Shown here: piece after piece, positions 3,222 through 55,924 of the stretch
How the letters are laid out: each line of letters opens with the position of its first letter
How positions within the stretch are numbered: position 1 is the stretch's first letter
From: a virus
Strand: one strand, 5' to 3'
Length of the DNA: 64,000 bases
IMG/VR virus record: IMGVR_UViG_3300025009_000004
Location: 32,001-96,000 of that record
Program-made: the position numbers and the translations under genes
Notes under the pieces: model-generated
Told to the model about the DNA's origin: nothing
The model's database searches: none
Seen by the model: only the letters and a program-made list of their open reading frames with translations

Positions 3222-3347
3222 TATTTTTATGATTATGGATTTGCTGGGAAACATGGGGAGCGATGCTCTTTCGAAAATGACACGAAAGCTAATACTATTT
3301 TTCTCGAATGTGGAGTTAAGGGTATATAAAGAAAGCGAGGATGAGAG

Positions 3348-3551
3348 ATGAAAATGGTTTTTATAAGCATCACAGTAGTCGATGATGAAAAGAAAAAAGA
3401 ATGGTCATCTGTTAAAAAGATACCATATCATGCTGGTGATGTAAATCAAGTAAACTTTGCAAGGTTTGACAGGATAAATCAAGTGCTTTACTGTTCGCAA
3501 GAAGCATTTAGAGAAATCGTAGAAAAGGTTGAGAGCGAGGATGAGAAATGA
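3348..3551 (+). CDS. hypothetical protein
   Basis: starts and ends in junction motifs. Confidence 0.65.
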   Translation: MKMVFISITVVDDEKKKEWSSVKKIPYHAGDVNQVNFARFDRINQVLYCSQEAFREIVEKVESEDEK

Positions 3552-3787
3552 AATATAGCATACGAAAATTGCATTGTAATATGACGCTCGACCAATGGCA
3601 CGATATAGAAAAATTTTATAACTCTATAACAAAAACATACGATATGTCTGTTGATGAGTGTTTGAAGACCGTTGGCCTTATTAGTATGAACGCGATAATA
3701 GTTGATGGCAAGCAAAGTCCATTAAACGAACAAGAGAAAGAATTTATAACTAATTTGTATGATGCCTATCGGAGGCGAAGAAAATAA
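3548..3787 (+). CDS. hypothetical protein
   Basis: ATGA-coupled to the upstream ORF. Confidence 0.65.
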   Translation: MKYSIRKLHCNMTLDQWHDIEKFYNSITKTYDMSVDECLKTVGLISMNAIIVDGKQSPLNEQEKEFITNLYDAYRRRRK

Positions 3788-4093
3788 ATGAATAGATGTA
3801 TTGATTGCCAACGTCAATTAATTAAAGACCATCAAGAAACACATGCAGATAATTATAATCTATGCAATAAATGCTATAAGAAAAGATTTGGCATTGAGCG
3901 CAGATATATTTATCAAAAAGAATCTAAGCAAAAATATTATCGATGTGCTATATGCAATCAAACATTTCCAACAAATGGGACTAAGATAGGGAATGAATGT
4001 AGCGCATGTAAATCTAAGAAAAATCATAGAATAAACAAAGGAAAGATGAAGGAGGTTGAAGCAGCTAATAATAAACTTATAAAAAATTTATGA
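3788..4093 (+). CDS. double zinc-ribbon protein, interrupted at its 3' end by the TnpB element
   Basis: four CxxC pairs; the likely original C-terminus (VWKWIYYK...NFTE*) lies at 5494-5594 beyond the element. Confidence 0.65.
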   Translation: MNRCIDCQRQLIKDHQETHADNYNLCNKCYKKRFGIERRYIYQKESKQKYYRCAICNQTFPTNGTKIGNECSACKSKKNHRINKGKMKEVEAANNKLIKNL

Positions 4094-5493
4094 AACTTAT
4101 TGACAAAGATAAAATAAGGAGGTGCAAGCATGCGAAAGGTAGTTCATGGCGGAGTTTATTTTAAACAAGAAACTAAAAACAGAATATTTGAATTAATGAA
4201 AGCCCAATGCTCCGCAATTCATTCTGCATTCCAAGCTATACATAAGTATGAACAGACGGGGAACGCAGTCAAGAAGTATGTTAAAATAAACTTTATGAAA
4301 TATCTAAATCAACGCTATGTTTCAGATGCTTGCACCGTTGCCTCTAGCATTATATCAGAACATGTACTGTTTGGCGGAAAGAGAACATGGGAAGAACTCC
4401 AAACGGGCAGAATTACTAAAGAACAATGGCTTCAAAAGCGAAACAGTCAGTTATTTTCACAAGGTGATGCAGCCAAGGATGGAAATCCTAACATCAGAAT
4501 TAAGGGAAACAAAATATATGTAAACGACCCTGCCATAAGAGGCAAGTGGCTAGAAGGCTCTGTGTTTATTCCTATTAAGTTTAAAGGATGGATTTCACAG
4601 TGCTATAATGCTCGTCTTATCTATAAAAATAATAAATTTAAGATAGTGATTTCATTTGAGGTCGAAACCCCCGAATTAATAATCACTTCTAAAAAGCAAG
4701 GCGTTATCGGGATAGACACTAACCCAGATCAGCTTGCAGTTTCTGAAACCAACAAAGATGGCAACCTTATCAATCATTATTCCTCCAAACTCCAAAGGAT
4801 TCAATTTGCTCGAAAGGAAAAGCGGGACTATGACGTTCAAGTAGCGGCCAAGAACATAGTAAATAGCGCCATTGATAAAGGAAAACCTATAGTTATAGAA
4901 AAATTAAACTTTAAAAAAGATAATAAAGGAACAAAGAAATTTAAGAGAATGAAACATAATTTCCTTTATCGTAAATTAACAGAAGCAATTAAGACTCAAG
5001 CCGCTAAACATGGCGTATTAGTAGAAGAAGTTAATCCAGCGTTTACAAGTATATTAGGTCAACTCAAATACCGAGGAATGCTCTCGTTGAGTTCTCATGA
5101 ATCTGCTGCGTTAGTGATAGCGCGTAGGGGAATGGGTTTTAGAGAACGGCAAACTTTTAATATAACTAAAGACCCCAAGAAATCGGGATATTGGAACCTT
5201 GAAGGAAGAAAATATTCGAAGAGTATTGGAACAAAAGCTTTAGATTATTTGAAAGATTGTTTCCTCAAGCCTCCGCTCACTGCGGTTGATTTGGTCCCGT
5301 TGTAATTGACGGCATATAATCATAATCCGGTGTCGCAAAGCCGGAGGGTAGTCGTGGATGAGAATTGGTCGTCCGTGCGGTGGAATCTGATCTATAGCAA
5401 TAAAGGTATAACAGAATGGGCTCCACGTCAGGAGAAAGAAAGGTCTCCTTCCAAATGTATAAGATTAAGTTTTTATATGTTTGGTAAACCAGG
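4056..5493 (+). mobile_element. non-autonomous IS607-like element carrying tnpB only
   Basis: AGGT at both junctions (4053-4056, 5491-5494); AAA(C/T)TTAT repeats at the left end and inverted variants at the right end; excision restores an in-frame ORF; no tnpA. Confidence 0.7.
4130..5305 (+). CDS. tnpB: TnpB-related RNA-guided nuclease (IS200/IS605/IS607 accessory protein) lacking the Zn finger
   Basis: RuvC-I GIDTNPDQLAV, RuvC-II IVIEKL, VNPAFTSILG, HESAALVIARR. Confidence 0.85.
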   Translation: MRKVVHGGVYFKQETKNRIFELMKAQCSAIHSAFQAIHKYEQTGNAVKKYVKINFMKYLNQRYVSDACTVASSIISEHVLFGGKRTWEELQTGRITKEQWLQKRNSQLFSQGDAAKDGNPNIRIKGNKIYVNDPAIRGKWLEGSVFIPIKFKGWISQCYNARLIYKNNKFKIVISFEVETPELIITSKKQGVIGIDTNPDQLAVSETNKDGNLINHYSSKLQRIQFARKEKRDYDVQVAAKNIVNSAIDKGKPIVIEKLNFKKDNKGTKKFKRMKHNFLYRKLTEAIKTQAAKHGVLVEEVNPAFTSILGQLKYRGMLSLSSHESAALVIARRGMGFRERQTFNITKDPKKSGYWNLEGRKYSKSIGTKALDYLKDCFLKPPLTAVDLVPL

Positions 5494-5515
5494 TATGGAA
5501 ATGGATATATTATAA
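5270..5515 (+). ncRNA. putative omegaRNA of the first TnpB; predicted guide begins TATGGAAATGG at 5494
   Basis: GC-richer, hairpin-forming tract between the tnpB 3' end and the element right end; 5' boundary approximate. Confidence 0.5.
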
Positions 5516-5603
5516 ACTTGAAGACAATAATAGATCGGCATTATATAGTCTCAAAGAGGATATAACCGATATATTATTAAACTTTACTGAGTAGGAGGCG
5601 AAT

Positions 5604-5669
5604 GTGATTGGAATATTACTATTAGCTATAGTAGTTATTATGGACAGTCTATTTGGAAGGAGAAGTTAA
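5604..5669 (+). CDS. 21-aa hydrophobic small peptide
   Basis: GGAGG RBS then GTG; MIGILLLAIVVIMDSLFGRRS. Confidence 0.4.
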   Translation: MIGILLLAIVVIMDSLFGRRS

Positions 5670-5688
5670 AAAAATAATAAGAAAGTTC

Positions 5689-5717
5689 TTGACGTTTAGA
5701 AACATCTATGGTAAAAT
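5689..5717 (+). promoter_or_regulatory. sigma70-type promoter of the replication operon
   Basis: TTGACG-17 nt-TAAAAT with extended -10 TG; preceded by TAAGAAAGTTC. Confidence 0.75.
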
Positions 5718-5757
5718 ATGATTAATGGAGGCAAATCAATGACAGGAGGAAAGCAAA

Positions 5758-5946
5758 GTGCAAGTAAATATTAAGATACCGGAAGACGATAACACAAGCA
5801 ATGCGGTATGTTTAAGGTTTGACGTAATTGCGAAAGCAATGCAGTTAAGCAAACAACAGGCAGTCATTCAGGCGCTTAATGAGTTTAATATAACTCACGC
5901 CAATGTATTAAACGACATGGCTTATCAGATACCAGAAACAAAATAA
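5758..5946 (+). CDS. putative ribbon-helix-helix DNA-binding protein
   Basis: AGGAGG RBS, GTG start; alternating beta strand QVNIKI followed by two helices (...LSKQQAVIQAL). Confidence 0.55.
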   Translation: MQVNIKIPEDDNTSNAVCLRFDVIAKAMQLSKQQAVIQALNEFNITHANVLNDMAYQIPETK

Positions 5947-5955
5947 CTAAATATC

Positions 5956-7098
5956 ATGAAAAGTTATAAAACAGAAATAAAATTAAATAATGAACAAAAA
6001 GAACAATTTCTAAAAACTATAGGAACTTGTCGATTTGTATATAATCTTTTTATTGATATCAATAAAGAGCGTTATGAATATGGCCAGCCTTTTATGTCTG
6101 GGATGTCTTTTTCAAAATGGCTAAACAGTCAATACATTCCAAATAGTCCAGACAAACAATGGATTAAAGAAGTTTCGAGTAAATCTGTAAAACAAAGCAT
6201 AGTGAATGCAGAGAAAGCATATAAAGCATTCTTAAAAACAAAGAAAGGATTTCCGAGATTTAAAAGTCGTAAAAGCAGCATGAATATGTATTTTGTTAAA
6301 ACAGATAACAAACAACCAATAATTTGTAAGCGACATAAAATAAAAATTCCAACTTTGGGATGGGTTCGACTAAAAGAATATGGATATATCCCTGTTTCCG
6401 AAGATATAACAAGTGGCAATATTTCAATGAAAGCAGGGAGGTTTTATGTTGCCGTTGTAACTCATGAAGAACATAAAATACAGAATAATAATACTAATAC
6501 TGGAATAGGAATTGATCTAGGCATAAAAGAATTAGCCGTACTATCGAATGGCAAGACTTTTAAAAACATTAACAAAACAATAGCCATTAAGAAACTTAAT
6601 AAGAAATTAAAAAGAGAACAGCGCAAACTTTCAAAGAAATATGAAAACAAGAAAAAGGGAGCAACTTTAGGAAGCAACTTTAATAAACAGTTATTAAGGA
6701 TTCGAATAATTTATAAAACTATAACAAACATAAAGCAAGACTATCAGTATAAAGTTGTGAATGAGATAGTGAGAACCAAGCCATCTTATATTACAATTGA
6801 AAATCTTAACATTAAAGGCATGATGAAGAATCGGCATTTATCAAGGGCTATTTCGCAACAAGGGCTTTACGGATTTATTCAAAAATTAAAATTTAAAGCC
6901 TATCTCAACGGAATAGAAATAAGACAGGTTGACAGATTTTACCCATCTTCTAAATTGTGCAGTAATTGTGGCAAAATAAAGAAAGATTTAAATCTTTCAG
7001 ATAGGATTTACAAATGTGAATGTGGGTTAATTATTGACCGTGATTTGAACGCGGCGATTAATTTACAACAAGCAACCGATTATAAGATTGCATGTTAA
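5956..7098 (+). CDS. tnpB: TnpB RNA-guided endonuclease (IS605/IS607 OrfB family)
   Basis: N-terminal OrfB HTH, GIDLG, ITIENLN, CSNC...CEC Zn finger, DRDLNAAINL; catalytic D-E-D intact. Confidence 0.92.
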   Translation: MKSYKTEIKLNNEQKEQFLKTIGTCRFVYNLFIDINKERYEYGQPFMSGMSFSKWLNSQYIPNSPDKQWIKEVSSKSVKQSIVNAEKAYKAFLKTKKGFPRFKSRKSSMNMYFVKTDNKQPIICKRHKIKIPTLGWVRLKEYGYIPVSEDITSGNISMKAGRFYVAVVTHEEHKIQNNNTNTGIGIDLGIKELAVLSNGKTFKNINKTIAIKKLNKKLKREQRKLSKKYENKKKGATLGSNFNKQLLRIRIIYKTITNIKQDYQYKVVNEIVRTKPSYITIENLNIKGMMKNRHLSRAISQQGLYGFIQKLKFKAYLNGIEIRQVDRFYPSSKLCSNCGKIKKDLNLSDRIYKCECGLIIDRDLNAAINLQQATDYKIAC

Positions 7099-7262
7099 AG
7101 AAATCTTATAATCAAGTACCGATGGCTTGTCGGGAATTTACGCCTTTGGACTGTTATATCAAACTGTAGTAGCGATGCGAGGCAGGACAGGTTGAAGAAG
7201 GAATTATCTAAAAGTTAGCAAAGCTAACTTCAAAGGAGCAGCGAACTAAATGAATTTCCAAA
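7078..7262 (+). ncRNA. putative TnpB omegaRNA (scaffold plus guide)
   Basis: scaffold conserved with the region 3' of the tnpB at 54779, with compensatory changes; ends approximate. Confidence 0.65.
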
Positions 7263-54647: not shown

Positions 54648-54800
54648 ACTACCTCTTGTTTAATTATTTTGGTAATTCCTTCTTCAACCTGTCCGACCTC
54701 GATTGCTCTACTATCGTTTGTATAACAGTCCAAAGGCGCAAATTCCCGTGTAGCCCACGGTATATATATAAGCAATATTTATGTTACTATCTTATATTTT
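54625..54800 (-). ncRNA. putative TnpB omegaRNA
   Basis: shares GGGAATTT.CGCCTTTGGACTGTTATA and GGACAGGTTGAAGAAGGAATTA with 7115-7205; covarying hairpins; ends approximate. Confidence 0.65.
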
Positions 54801-55924
54801 ATTGCTTGTTTAAGATTTAATGATGCATTTAAATCTCTATTAATAGTTAAACCACAATCGCACTTATAAACTCTATCTGATAGTTTTAAATCTTTCTTTA
54901 TTTTACCACATTTGCTACACATTTTACTTGAAGGATAAAACGTATCGACTTGTCTTAATTCTATAGAGTTTTCAATGCATTTGAATTTTAACTTCTGTAT
55001 GAAACTATAAAATCCTTGTTTAGATATTGCTTTTGATAGATGTCTGTTCTTCATCATTCCCCTAATATTAAGATTTTCTATCGTTATATACTTTGGCTTG
55101 GTTTTCGCTAAAGTATTTGCTATTTGGTTCCGATGGTCTTCTCTTATATTAGACAATCTTAAATACAATCTTTGGACTTTAATAGATTGTTTATATTGAT
55201 TCTTTCCAACCGCGTCTCCTTTCTTTTTATTCTTAAATTTGCGAGACAACTTTCTTTGTTCTCTTTTTAATTTTTTTTCTATTTTGCTTATTTTAGTTGT
55301 TTTATTAATATTTTTAAATATCTGGCCATTAGAGGCAATTGCAAAATATTTTATCCCCAAATCAACTCCAATGCCATCGTTATAATTATTCTTCTTAATT
55401 TCTAAAGACTCTTCCGTGTTAACAGCCATATAAAATCTCCCCGCTCTTTCTATAATATGGCCACTAGTTATTTTACAAGATAAAGGGATATATCCAAATT
55501 CTTTTATTTTAACCCAACCCAAGACTGGAATCTTTATTCTTTTTTCTTTTATTCCAATAACATGTTTACTGTTTGAACGAACAAAATACATGGATATATT
55601 GTTATCTTTCTTTTTTTTGAATCGAGGGAATTTATTTTGCCCACGGAAAAATCTTTTATATGCCTGTTCTGCATTAGAAATACTTTGCCTTGTTGCCTTC
55701 GTCGAAGACTCTTTAATCCAATTGAGGCTGGGATTGTTAGGCAAATAAAAATTGTTGAGCCATTTTGAAAAAGATATTGCATTTAAAAATGGGATTCCAT
55801 GCAAATATCTTTCTTTATTCTCTTTAATAAATAAATTATAAGTGTACCTACATGTTCCAACTGATTTTCGAAACATTATAATTTGTTTATTTGTTAACTG
55901 TATTTCTATTTTATATGATTTCAT
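54779..55924 (-). CDS. tnpB: TnpB RNA-guided endonuclease (IS605/IS607 OrfB family)
   Basis: GVDLG, ITIENLN, CSKC...CDC, NRDLNASLNL; paralogue of 5956-7098. Confidence 0.92.
   Translation of the reverse strand: MKSYKIEIQLTNKQIIMFRKSVGTCRYTYNLFIKENKERYLHGIPFLNAISFSKWLNNFYLPNNPSLNWIKESSTKATRQSISNAEQAYKRFFRGQNKFPRFKKKKDNNISMYFVRSNSKHVIGIKEKRIKIPVLGWVKIKEFGYIPLSCKITSGHIIERAGRFYMAVNTEESLEIKKNNYNDGIGVDLGIKYFAIASNGQIFKNINKTTKISKIEKKLKREQRKLSRKFKNKKKGDAVGKNQYKQSIKVQRLYLRLSNIREDHRNQIANTLAKTKPKYITIENLNIRGMMKNRHLSKAISKQGFYSFIQKLKFKCIENSIELRQVDTFYPSSKMCSKCGKIKKDLKLSDRVYKCDCGLTINRDLNASLNLKQAIKYKIVT

What the first reader, a model, noticed from the sequence alone, without database searches (positions are those of the whole stretch)
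4053..5594. IS607-like TnpB-only element whose precise excision restores a split gene
Seen: AGGT occurs at 4053-4056 and 5491-5494. Joining them gives ...NKGKMKEV-WKWIYYKLEDNNRSALYSLKEDITDILLNFTE* in frame (stop at 5594). AAA(C/T)TTAT repeats sit at the left end (4073, 4084, 4093) with inverted variants at the right end, and an orphan TTGACA precedes tnpB. Known: IS607 serine recombinases act at a GG core without target duplication, and TnpB cuts the empty site. Inference: the TAM ends in ...GGAGG, the guide is TATGGAAATGGATATATTAT, tnpA was deleted, and the element could home into element-free co-infecting phages.
Basis: partly seen in the sequence, partly recalled or inferred. Interest (0 to 1): 0.7.

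Follow-up and report, generated by a model that had tools for sequence, protein, structure and literature searches.

The report
Guide-RNA nuclease transposon splitting phage gene
A 1.4-kb mobile element that carries only an unusual RNA-guided nuclease gene and its guide RNA sits precisely inside a small phage gene, related phages still have the uninterrupted gene, and relatives of the element usually land on ribosome-binding sites.

Summary
Window 4056-5493 (1438 bp) is an insertion after GGAGG (4051-5055 region; exact 4051-4055) in a 122-codon phage gene. Two intact homologous proteins and four related DNA loci read straight across the junction. Three metagenome loci carry exactly the predicted empty site.

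The ORF at 4130-5305 is a divergent TnpB: it has no zinc finger, and D196, E257 and H323 are invariant. This fits the published "RIIIr-4" clade (RuvC-III Asp to His, virus-associated). A 49%-identical relative lies directly behind an IS607-type serine recombinase, so this copy is a tnpA-less IS607-type derivative.

The element ends in AAACCAGG, as in 17 of 18 related elements, and similarity stops there. That places the guide at 5494 onward. The 3' RNA shows covariation, and tnpB is under strong purifying selection.

Nuclease activity, the TAM and homing into other phages remain inferred. No RNA data and no excised form were found.

New here: related elements insert after GGAGG, between the Shine-Dalgarno sequence and the start codon (11 of 18 against a 5.5% background).

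This is a new member of a known kind. The scan had already noted this stretch from another window (e1-6136926).

The parts
3788..4055 (+). 5' part of the split phage gene: codons 1-89 plus the first base of codon 90. It includes all eight Cys of four CxxC pairs.
   Evidence: 82/90 identical to intact P0001. Colinear with L001 and L103-L105 up to 4056.
4051..4055 (+). GGAGG left flank: the presumed target and TAM-like motif. GG 4054-4055 is the presumed crossover core.
   Evidence: The same motif flanks 6 of 9 full-left-end relatives.
4056..4129 (+). Left end of the element (74 nt). It starts TTGAAG and holds AAAYTTAT x3 (4073, 4084, 4093), TTGACA 4100-4105 and an internal GGAGG (4118-4122) that serves as the tnpB ribosome-binding site.
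   Evidence: Left ends of L006, L008, L009, L012 and L015 begin TTGAA/TTTGAA/TTCAA/TTTAA straight after GG.
4130..5305 (+). tnpB-like gene, 391 aa: no zinc finger, with D196 / E257 / H323.
   Evidence: NCBIfam guided_TnpB 3.5e-20, partial. 1458 relatives. D196, E257, H323 invariant in 75/75. AF2 pLDDT 89.7. Foldseek finds Cas12f and TnpB. dN/dS 0.06-0.09.
5270..5493 (+). Conserved structured 3' RNA region (omegaRNA-like scaffold). It overlaps the last codons of tnpB and the right end.
   Evidence: 25 of 32 predicted pairs show compensatory changes in 11 elements. A further hairpin has 3 of 6. The single-sequence fold has z = -2.85.
5464..5482 (+). Right-end arm of the subterminal inverted repeat paired with 4073-4091. 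It also forms part of the last hairpin of the RNA.
   Evidence: 19 nt, 84%.
5486..5493 (+). Conserved element terminus AAACCAGG.
   Evidence: Identical in 17 of 18 elements and AAACTAGG in 1. Similarity ends here.
5494..5513 (+). Predicted guide-matching target (the first 16-20 nt of the right flank).
   Evidence: Position only. In L105 the same 17 nt follow GGAGG in the empty allele. Guide length and use are not shown.
5494..5594 (+). 3' part of the split gene: the last two bases of codon 90, then WKWIYYK...NFTE and the stop codon.
   Evidence: 29/36 identical to the P0001 tail. Colinear with L001 and L103-L105 from 5491/5493.

Best explanation
Window 4056-5493 is a non-autonomous (tnpA-less) IS607-type insertion sequence.

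Its cargo has two parts. The first is a TnpB-family RNA-guided nuclease of the zinc-finger-less lineage in which the RuvC-III Asp is His (it fits the RIIIr-4 clade of Altae-Tran et al. 2023). The second is the structured 3' RNA that would act as its guide RNA.

Shown:
- The element lies after the GG of a GGAGG inside a 122-codon phage gene, with no target duplication.
- Related phages carry the exact empty site.
- Autonomous relatives carry a serine-recombinase TnpA.
- The element end, the RNA structure and the protein are all conserved under selection.

Inferred mechanism:
- A serine recombinase supplied in trans, or recombination with an already filled genome, placed the element here by crossover at GG.
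- Transcription through tnpB gives an RNA whose scaffold ends ...AAACCAGG and whose 3' tail (TATGGAAATGG...) is the guide.
- The TnpB-RNA complex recognises GGAGG plus that sequence, which is the uninterrupted allele. It cuts it, and repair from the filled genome copies the element in. This is retention after excision, or homing into co-infecting relatives such as the L105-type phage.
- The filled allele would be spared because the guide match is preceded there by CCAGG instead of GGAGG.
- The host gene is broken at the DNA level, keeping 90 of 122 residues, and is not restored at the RNA level.
For: Insertion and empty alleles:
-.
- Both junctions are seen at 100% identity in contigs of three other samples.

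Family:
- NCBIfam guided_TnpB 3.5e-20 and TIGR01766 6e-15.
- 1458 relatives.
- No Cys cluster between NPAFTS and H323. D196, E257 and H323 are invariant in 75 of 75 sequences.
- AF2 model pLDDT 89.7. The best Foldseek matches are AsCas12f at 1e-11 and ISDra2 TnpB 8exa at 1.4e-7.
- Passages of PMC10691335 describe RIIIr-4 as lacking the C4 zinc finger, with the RuvC-III Asp replaced by His, sometimes RHH/MazE-associated, and represented in viruses.
- An RHH ORF precedes the L017 relative.

IS607 type:
- L013 TnpA has Resolvase 2e-21 plus MerR 6e-10. L119 is alike.
- There is a GG at both junctions.
- Passages of bioRxiv 10.1101/2023.11.20.567912 show, for an IS607-family element, a strict GG core, TAM TGGG and a scaffold ending UCGG.

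Guide boundary.
RNA covariation.
Purifying selection across three copies at three different sites.
No TnpA-like gene in the window.
Against: - No RNA data exist for this DNA, so the omegaRNA, its ends and tnpB expression are unseen.
- No contig with the excised form was found in 4 runs. Contigs hide rare variants, so this is weak evidence.
- The His for Asp at RuvC-III and the missing zinc finger have not been tested for activity in any paper I found.
- The promoter seen in relatives' left ends (TTGAC(A/T)-N17-TAnnCT) has decayed here.
- Membership of this protein in RIIIr-4 rests on matching the published description. The clade lists are in supplements that I could not open.
- The nearest empty-allele phages are only 86-93% identical in the flanks, so homing efficiency is unknown.
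Confidence: 0.8

Rival explanations
1. The element is an intron-like or IStron-like insertion that is removed from the mRNA by self-splicing, so the phage gene stays functional.
For: - Removal at the shared AGGT restores the frame exactly.
- IS607-family IStrons that do this are known (passages of 10.1101/2023.11.20.567912, and PMC13565253).
- The 33-codon tail is still open.
Against: - No Rfam family at E<=1 between 3000 and 8000 apart from RAGATH-18 at 7143-7203, which belongs to the neighbouring element.
- Only 74 nt lie 5' of tnpB. The paper read tested a native IStron left end of 581 bp.
- Most relatives (11 of 18) sit between genes, just upstream of a start codon, where no splicing is needed.
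- An open 33-codon tail is expected by chance at this divergence.
Confidence: 0.04
2. The protein is a nuclease-dead, exapted TnpB (TldR-like) that uses its RNA to bind DNA and regulate the neighbouring gene rather than to cut.
For: - RuvC-III Asp is replaced by His and the zinc finger is lost.
- In most relatives the predicted guide covers the start of the next gene.
- Phage-borne TldR regulators exist (search listings).
Against: - H323, D196 and E257 are invariant across 75 sequences. PMC10691335 argues that such conserved replacement implies retained activity.
- Presence/absence polymorphism between related phages.
- Three diverged copies at different sites in one 188-kb phage contig.
- Serine recombinase in relatives, and conserved transposon ends.
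- In the filled allele the guide match is preceded by CCAGG, not by the flank motif.
Confidence: 0.08
3. The element is an inert relic. It was inserted once by a recombinase, and tnpB and the RNA no longer do anything in this phage.
For: - No tnpA in the window.
- Decayed left-end promoter.
- No excised form seen.
Against: - The ORF is intact, with dN/dS 0.06-0.09 against copies in two other phages at other sites.
- A good ribosome-binding site lies 7 nt before the ATG.
- RNA stems are kept through compensatory changes.
Confidence: 0.06

Closest known systems
IS607-family elements, including the Clostridium botulinum IStron (TnpA serine recombinase + TnpB + omegaRNA; bioRxiv 10.1101/2023.11.20.567912, passages read)
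   Same: - GG core at both junctions, no target duplication and a scarless empty site.
- The scaffold ends in ...GG, and the TAM equals the recombinase target.
- The flank motif differs from the right-end motif a few bases upstream of GG (there TGGG against TCGG; here GGAGG against CCAGG).
- A serine recombinase is present in relatives L013 and L119.
   Different: - No tnpA in this copy, and no group I intron.
- The flank motif is GGAGG, not TGGG.
- The nuclease lacks the zinc finger and has His at RuvC-III.
- The NCBIfam IS607_TnpB model does not match it at E<=0.1.
RIIIr-4 major clade of TnpB (Altae-Tran et al. 2023, PMC10691335, passages read)
   Same: No C4 zinc finger, RuvC-III Asp replaced by His, presence in viruses, and occasional RHH neighbours.
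   Different: The clade was defined by phylogeny. I could not see the member lists (supplements closed), and I found no experimental work on it. The flank motif, the termini and the Shine-Dalgarno preference described here are not in the passages I read.
ISDra2 / IS605-family TnpB homing (PDB 8exa, 8h1j; the Meers et al. preprint appeared only as a search listing)
   Same: Same fold. The guide RNA comes from the 3' end of the element, the target is the empty donor joint, and the proposed role is retention and homing.
   Different: The partner transposase is a Y1 HUH enzyme with a TTGAT-type target. That protein has a canonical D-E-D site with a zinc finger. Sequence similarity is marginal (Cas12f only, E 0.005-0.012).
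Free-standing homing endonuclease genes of phages (SegF-type 'intronless homing'; review PMC13565253, passages read)
   Same: A selfish nuclease gene sits between or within conserved phage genes. It is present in some relatives and absent in others, and is expected to spread during co-infection.
   Different: Recognition here would be by RNA guide plus a short motif, not by protein. The element keeps transposon ends.

Membership tests
TnpB / OMEGA RNA-guided nuclease | RuvC (RNase H-like) fold with WED/REC architecture like TnpB/Cas12f | tested here: met
   AF2 pLDDT 89.7, pTM 0.76. Foldseek probability 1.0 to AsCas12f, ISDra2 TnpB, ISFba1 TnpB, Fanzor2 and RuvC. NCBIfam guided_TnpB 3.5e-20 over the central part only.
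TnpB / OMEGA RNA-guided nuclease | Catalytic D-E-D triad | tested here: not met
   D196 and E257 are present and invariant. The third position is H323, invariant in 75/75. This is the published RIIIr-4 variant. Activity is untested.
TnpB / OMEGA RNA-guided nuclease | Conserved structured RNA over the 3' end of the gene and the right end, with the guide beginning at the element boundary | tested here: met
   25 of 32 pairs show compensatory changes. There is a sharp loss of similarity after AAACCAGG in 18 elements. No Rfam family matches.
TnpB / OMEGA RNA-guided nuclease | RNA is expressed, bound and directs cleavage next to a TAM | not testable with these tools
   No RNA run holds this DNA. 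This needs RIP-seq and TAM-library assays.
RIIIr-4 clade (PMC10691335) | No C4 zinc finger between RuvC-II and RuvC-III | tested here: met
   NPAFTSILGQLKYRGMLSLSSH has no Cys, and no relative in alignment A1 has one there. The Pfam TNB domain matches only profile positions 1-28 of 60.
RIIIr-4 clade (PMC10691335) | RuvC-III Asp replaced by His | tested here: met
   H323 is invariant. It sits at the start of helix 322-334, before the SAALVIARRG stretch. Its equivalence to the DRDxN Asp rests on motif position and on the paper, not on a residue-level structural superposition.
RIIIr-4 clade (PMC10691335) | Placement inside the clade in the authors' tree | not tested
   The member lists and tree are in supplements, which were closed.
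IS607 family | Serine-recombinase TnpA with an N-terminal MerR-like HTH | tested here: not met
   Absent from this element and from the window. Present directly upstream of tnpB in relatives L013 (Resolvase 2e-21, MerR 6e-10) and L119. This copy is therefore a non-autonomous derivative.
IS607 family | Identical core dinucleotide (GG) at the left flank and the right end, with no target-site duplication and a scarless empty site | tested here: met
   GG at 4054-4055 and 5492-5493. Empty alleles L103-L105 equal the flank join. All 9 full-left-end relatives lie after GG.
IS607 family | Subterminal repeats at both ends (recombinase binding sites) | tested here: inconclusive
   AAAYTTAT x3 in the left end and an inverted copy in the right end. 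L013 and L119 have TGGACA x2 in the left end and its inverse in the right end. The repeats co-vary between lineages. Binding is untested.
IStron (group I intron + IS605/IS607) | Group I ribozyme in the 5' part of the element | tested here: not met
   No Intron_gpI or any other hit at E<=1. The 5' untranslated part is 74 nt.

The most novel reading that the evidence does not exclude
This phage-borne, zinc-finger-less TnpB lineage may be specialised on the Shine-Dalgarno motif itself. Target and TAM would be GGAGG, so the elements land in the few bases between a ribosome-binding site and a start codon.

There the host's GGAGG can drive tnpB translation, and the AGG of the element's own ...CCAGG terminus replaces the lost site for the downstream gene. 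The guide RNA is then the translation start region of that gene.

Copies whose left end has shrunk to 12-17 nt (L002, L004, L007, L117) can no longer be moved by a recombinase. They would persist purely as RNA-guided homing genes, the RNA-guided counterpart of free-standing phage homing endonucleases.

The window's copy would be a mis-hit on an internal GGAGG...ATG look-alike.
Probability: 0.45. Interest if true: 0.65.

Novelty: new member of a known kind. Interest (0 to 1): 0.5.

Why it matters
This is an unusually clean natural example of a TnpB element. The element, the exact empty allele in relatives, the flank motif and the guide boundary can all be read from sequence. It concerns a large TnpB clade (no zinc finger, His in RuvC-III) for which I found no experimental work.

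It offers a compact 391-aa candidate nuclease with a predicted GGAGG TAM and a defined scaffold end to test. It also suggests that phage genomes carry RNA-guided homing elements that ride on ribosome-binding sites. If that holds, it would explain how such elements spread through tightly packed phage operons at little cost to the phage.

Tried and rejected
- blastn of 3300-6000 against the phage collection found no match. tblastn of the protein there found only 4 Thermus phage records at 28-30% identity, so cultured phages give no close context.
- The profile search of solved structures by sequence gave only marginal Cas12f hits.
- hhalign of the family profile against the window's canonical TnpB aligned only the RuvC-I region, at probability 0.9%. 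It gave no residue-level map of RuvC-III.
- MAFFT on the last ~150-190 nt misaligned the window group against the others. I replaced this with a longer anchored alignment. The last hairpin still could not be put in register, so its covariation is by eye only.
- No RNA holder was listed for this DNA. In the 4 runs laid, no joint and no empty allele was seen; these are contigs only.
- Group I and group II boundary rules were checked by eye. No choice of boundary within AGGT gives a 5' exon ending in U together with an intron ending in G, and GU...AG is possible only by shifting the boundary. I rejected this as uninformative.
- I considered that the T of AGGT belongs to the core. I rejected this because 9 other elements have A, C or G after ...CCAGG.
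- Literature: two searches for RIIIr-4 work or for TnpB/IS607 with Shine-Dalgarno or ribosome-binding-site targeting, plus one wider search, gave no paper describing this. That is all that 'not found' means here.
- Rows dropped from the 18-element count:
  - Loci that repeat a contig region already counted: L010 = L009, L016 = L008, L019 = L012, L011 with L117, and L106-L108, L110-L112, L114, L115, L118, L120.
  - L014, L018 and L020, where no A(A/C)C(C/T)AGG end was found in the range scanned.
  - L021 and L022, which are partial matches and were not scanned.
- The 80 genome loci (about 30% identity) were only sampled, in six groups, and are not in any count.
Full report
**1. The observation**

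GGAGG ends at 4055 and the next base is T, so AGGT is at 4053-4056. The right side reads ...GGTAAACCAGG, ending at 5493, again followed by T, so AGGT is at 5491-5494.

ORF 3788-4093 (101 aa) and the short frame ending at 5594 are two parts of one gene:
- A search with the N-part returned only two proteins, P0001 (122 aa) and P0002 (123 aa). Both read ...MKEVWKWVYDKLEDNN... across the junction.
- P0001 matches the N-part at 82/90 residues and the tail at 29/36.

At the DNA level a related viral contig (L001) and three metagenome contigs (L103-L105) are colinear with the window on both sides and lack 1438 bp. L001 differs in the motif (AAAGAAGTG).

Contigs of three further samples cross one or both junctions with no difference, so the insertion is real.

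**2. What the ORF is**

Pfam gives only a sub-threshold partial hit to the Cas12f1-like TNB domain. NCBIfam gives guided_TnpB at 3.5e-20 over residues 212-315 and TIGR01766 at 6e-15. PHROGs gives 'transposase'.

The big-database search found 1458 relatives:
- Five are at 73-81% identity and 391-395 aa.
- The rest of the 120 listed are at 46-54% identity. Nearly all of the 120 carry a precomputed Pfam label, PF27229, that my Pfam copy does not hold.

Alignments of 17 and 75 members show invariant D196 (GIDTNPD), E257 (IEKLNF) and H323. They show no cysteine cluster between NPAFTS and H323, where canonical TnpB has its zinc finger.

The AlphaFold model is confident (pLDDT 89.7). Its best structural matches are Cas12f, ISDra2 and ISFba1 TnpB, Fanzor2 and RuvC.

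Passages of Altae-Tran et al. 2023 (PMC10691335) describe one of five major TnpB clades, RIIIr-4, with these traits:
- it lacks the C4 zinc finger;
- its RuvC-III Asp is replaced by His;
- it includes members next to RHH/MazE-like genes;
- it is among the rearranged branches 'specifically represented in viruses'.

All four traits are met here: 21 viral loci and an RHH ORF before the L017 relative. I could not see the clade's member list because supplements were closed. I found no experimental paper on the clade.

**3. What kind of element it is**

- Relative L013 (49% identical protein) has an ORF with MerR HTH and resolvase domains ending at the tnpB start. That is the IS607-type serine recombinase. 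L119 has the same gene.
- In 18 distinct elements the right end is ...A(A/C)C(C/T)AGG: AAACCAGG in 17 and AAACTAGG in 1. Similarity stops exactly there.
- In nine elements with a full left end, the element starts straight after GG. Six lie after GGAGG (the window, L008, L009, L015, L013, L119), two after GGGG (L006, L012) and one after TCGG (L003).
- This matches what the IStron paper reports for an IS607-family element: a strict GG core, TAM TGGG equal to the recombinase target, and a scaffold ending UCGG (passages).
- The window has no relative of the L013 recombinase and only 74 nt before tnpB. This copy is therefore a tnpA-less derivative.
- The left-end repeats (AAAYTTAT x3) have an inverted partner in the right end. 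L013 and L119 instead have TGGACA twice on the left and its inverse on the right. The ends co-vary, as binding sites of lineage-specific recombinases would.

**4. The RNA**

From the last codons of tnpB to the terminus, 11 elements share a structure in which 25 of 32 predicted pairs show compensatory changes. The next hairpin, with a GAAAGG loop, has 3 of 6. The last hairpin is visible by eye but was not alignable. Rfam has no family for it.

Longer relatives (~440 aa) read through this region as protein, which explains their extra C-terminal residues.

Position, conservation and the sharp boundary are those of an omegaRNA scaffold, with the guide starting at 5494. Expression is unseen.

**5. 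Is it alive?**

tnpB copies in three phages at three different sites give dN/dS of 0.06-0.09 (dS is saturated). A ribosome-binding site lies 7 nt before the ATG.

The promoter present in relatives' left ends (TTGAC(A/T)-N17-TAnnCT-N7-ATG in L008, L009 and L012) is reduced here to the orphan TTGACA. Transcription probably comes from the phage operon.

The L105-type empty allele has GGAGG followed by 17 bases identical to 5494-5510. L103 and L104 match for 11 bases. L001 lacks the GG. Some relatives would therefore be targets and others immune. This is inference.

**6. Beyond the finding**

Eleven of 18 right ends are followed at 3-11 nt by an ATG that opens an ORF of 50 aa or more. The background is 957 of 17,389 GG sites (5.5%) in the same loci, giving binomial P of 3e-10. 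For GGAGG sites on either strand it is 24 of 250. L119 adds a GTG start.

Joining the flanks rebuilds a Shine-Dalgarno site, a spacer and a start codon. In L002, L004, L007 and L117 only 12-17 nt separate the flanking GG from the tnpB start, so these copies have lost the left end. The window's own left end contains a GGAGG at the matching place (4118-4122), which suggests how such deletions arise.

Whether this pattern reflects target choice or survival of harmless insertions is open. The window's copy is the exception: it lies inside a gene, at a GGAGG followed by ATG look-alikes. It leaves 90 of 122 residues and all eight Cys.

**7. Rivals**

- Splicing is unsupported: no ribozyme, a short 5' part, and mostly intergenic relatives.
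- An exapted dead regulator is unlikely, given mobility, the recombinase partners and the invariant triad.
- An inert relic is contradicted by the purifying selection.

**8. Verdict**

This is a new member of a bioinformatically known but untested TnpB clade within the IS607 scheme. Its TAM and guide can be read clearly from sequence, and a ribosome-binding-site preference was noted here.

Earlier scan notes e1-6136926 (same stretch) and e1-6136932 (neighbouring TnpB) agree with what I found.

Noticed in passing
window 5955-7236: A second, canonical TnpB element: ORF 5956-7098 (guided_TnpB 1e-84) with a RAGATH-18 RNA at 7143-7203. It is also absent from relative L001, where 3 bp stand in its place. 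Its ATG lies at the very left boundary, and its right flank is the ribosome-binding site and start of the AAA_24 gene at 7250. In L104 a different ~490-bp gene occupies this slot.
   Followed up: partly
window 54785-55924 (- strand): A third TnpB gene, 60.5% identical to the second one (tblastn). The window therefore holds three TnpB-type genes and no transposase relative of the L013 type.
   Followed up: no
L119 (reverse strand, ~1500 nt before its right end): This element has the recombinase gene and the complete 3' RNA and right end, but tnpB is reduced to its first ~30 codons. L109, L113 and L116 have the RNA and right end with no tnpB match in the 1.7 kb upstream. They may be guide-only or miniature derivatives.
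   Followed up: partly
L029, L031, L032 (Anaerolineae genome contigs): Distant relatives (~30% identity) also end in ...GACCAGG but are flanked by 8-9-bp direct duplications (ATAGGAGG, TTTAATCC, AAATCCCCA). This is unexpected for a serine recombinase.
   Followed up: no
L010, L012, L016 (one 188-kb viral contig): Three copies of the element family in one large phage contig, 76-78% identical to each other and at different sites.
   Followed up: partly
L013 2282-2527 and the matching place in L119: The autonomous elements carry a further conserved ~81-aa ORF between a strong left-end promoter (TTGACT-N17-TATAAT) and the recombinase gene. Its function is unknown.
   Followed up: no
window 3788-4055 with 5494-5594: The interrupted phage gene encodes a 122-aa protein with four CxxC pairs and no family assignment: only sub-threshold ZZ and double zinc ribbon hints. 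It is conserved and intact in at least five related phage sequences.
   Followed up: partly
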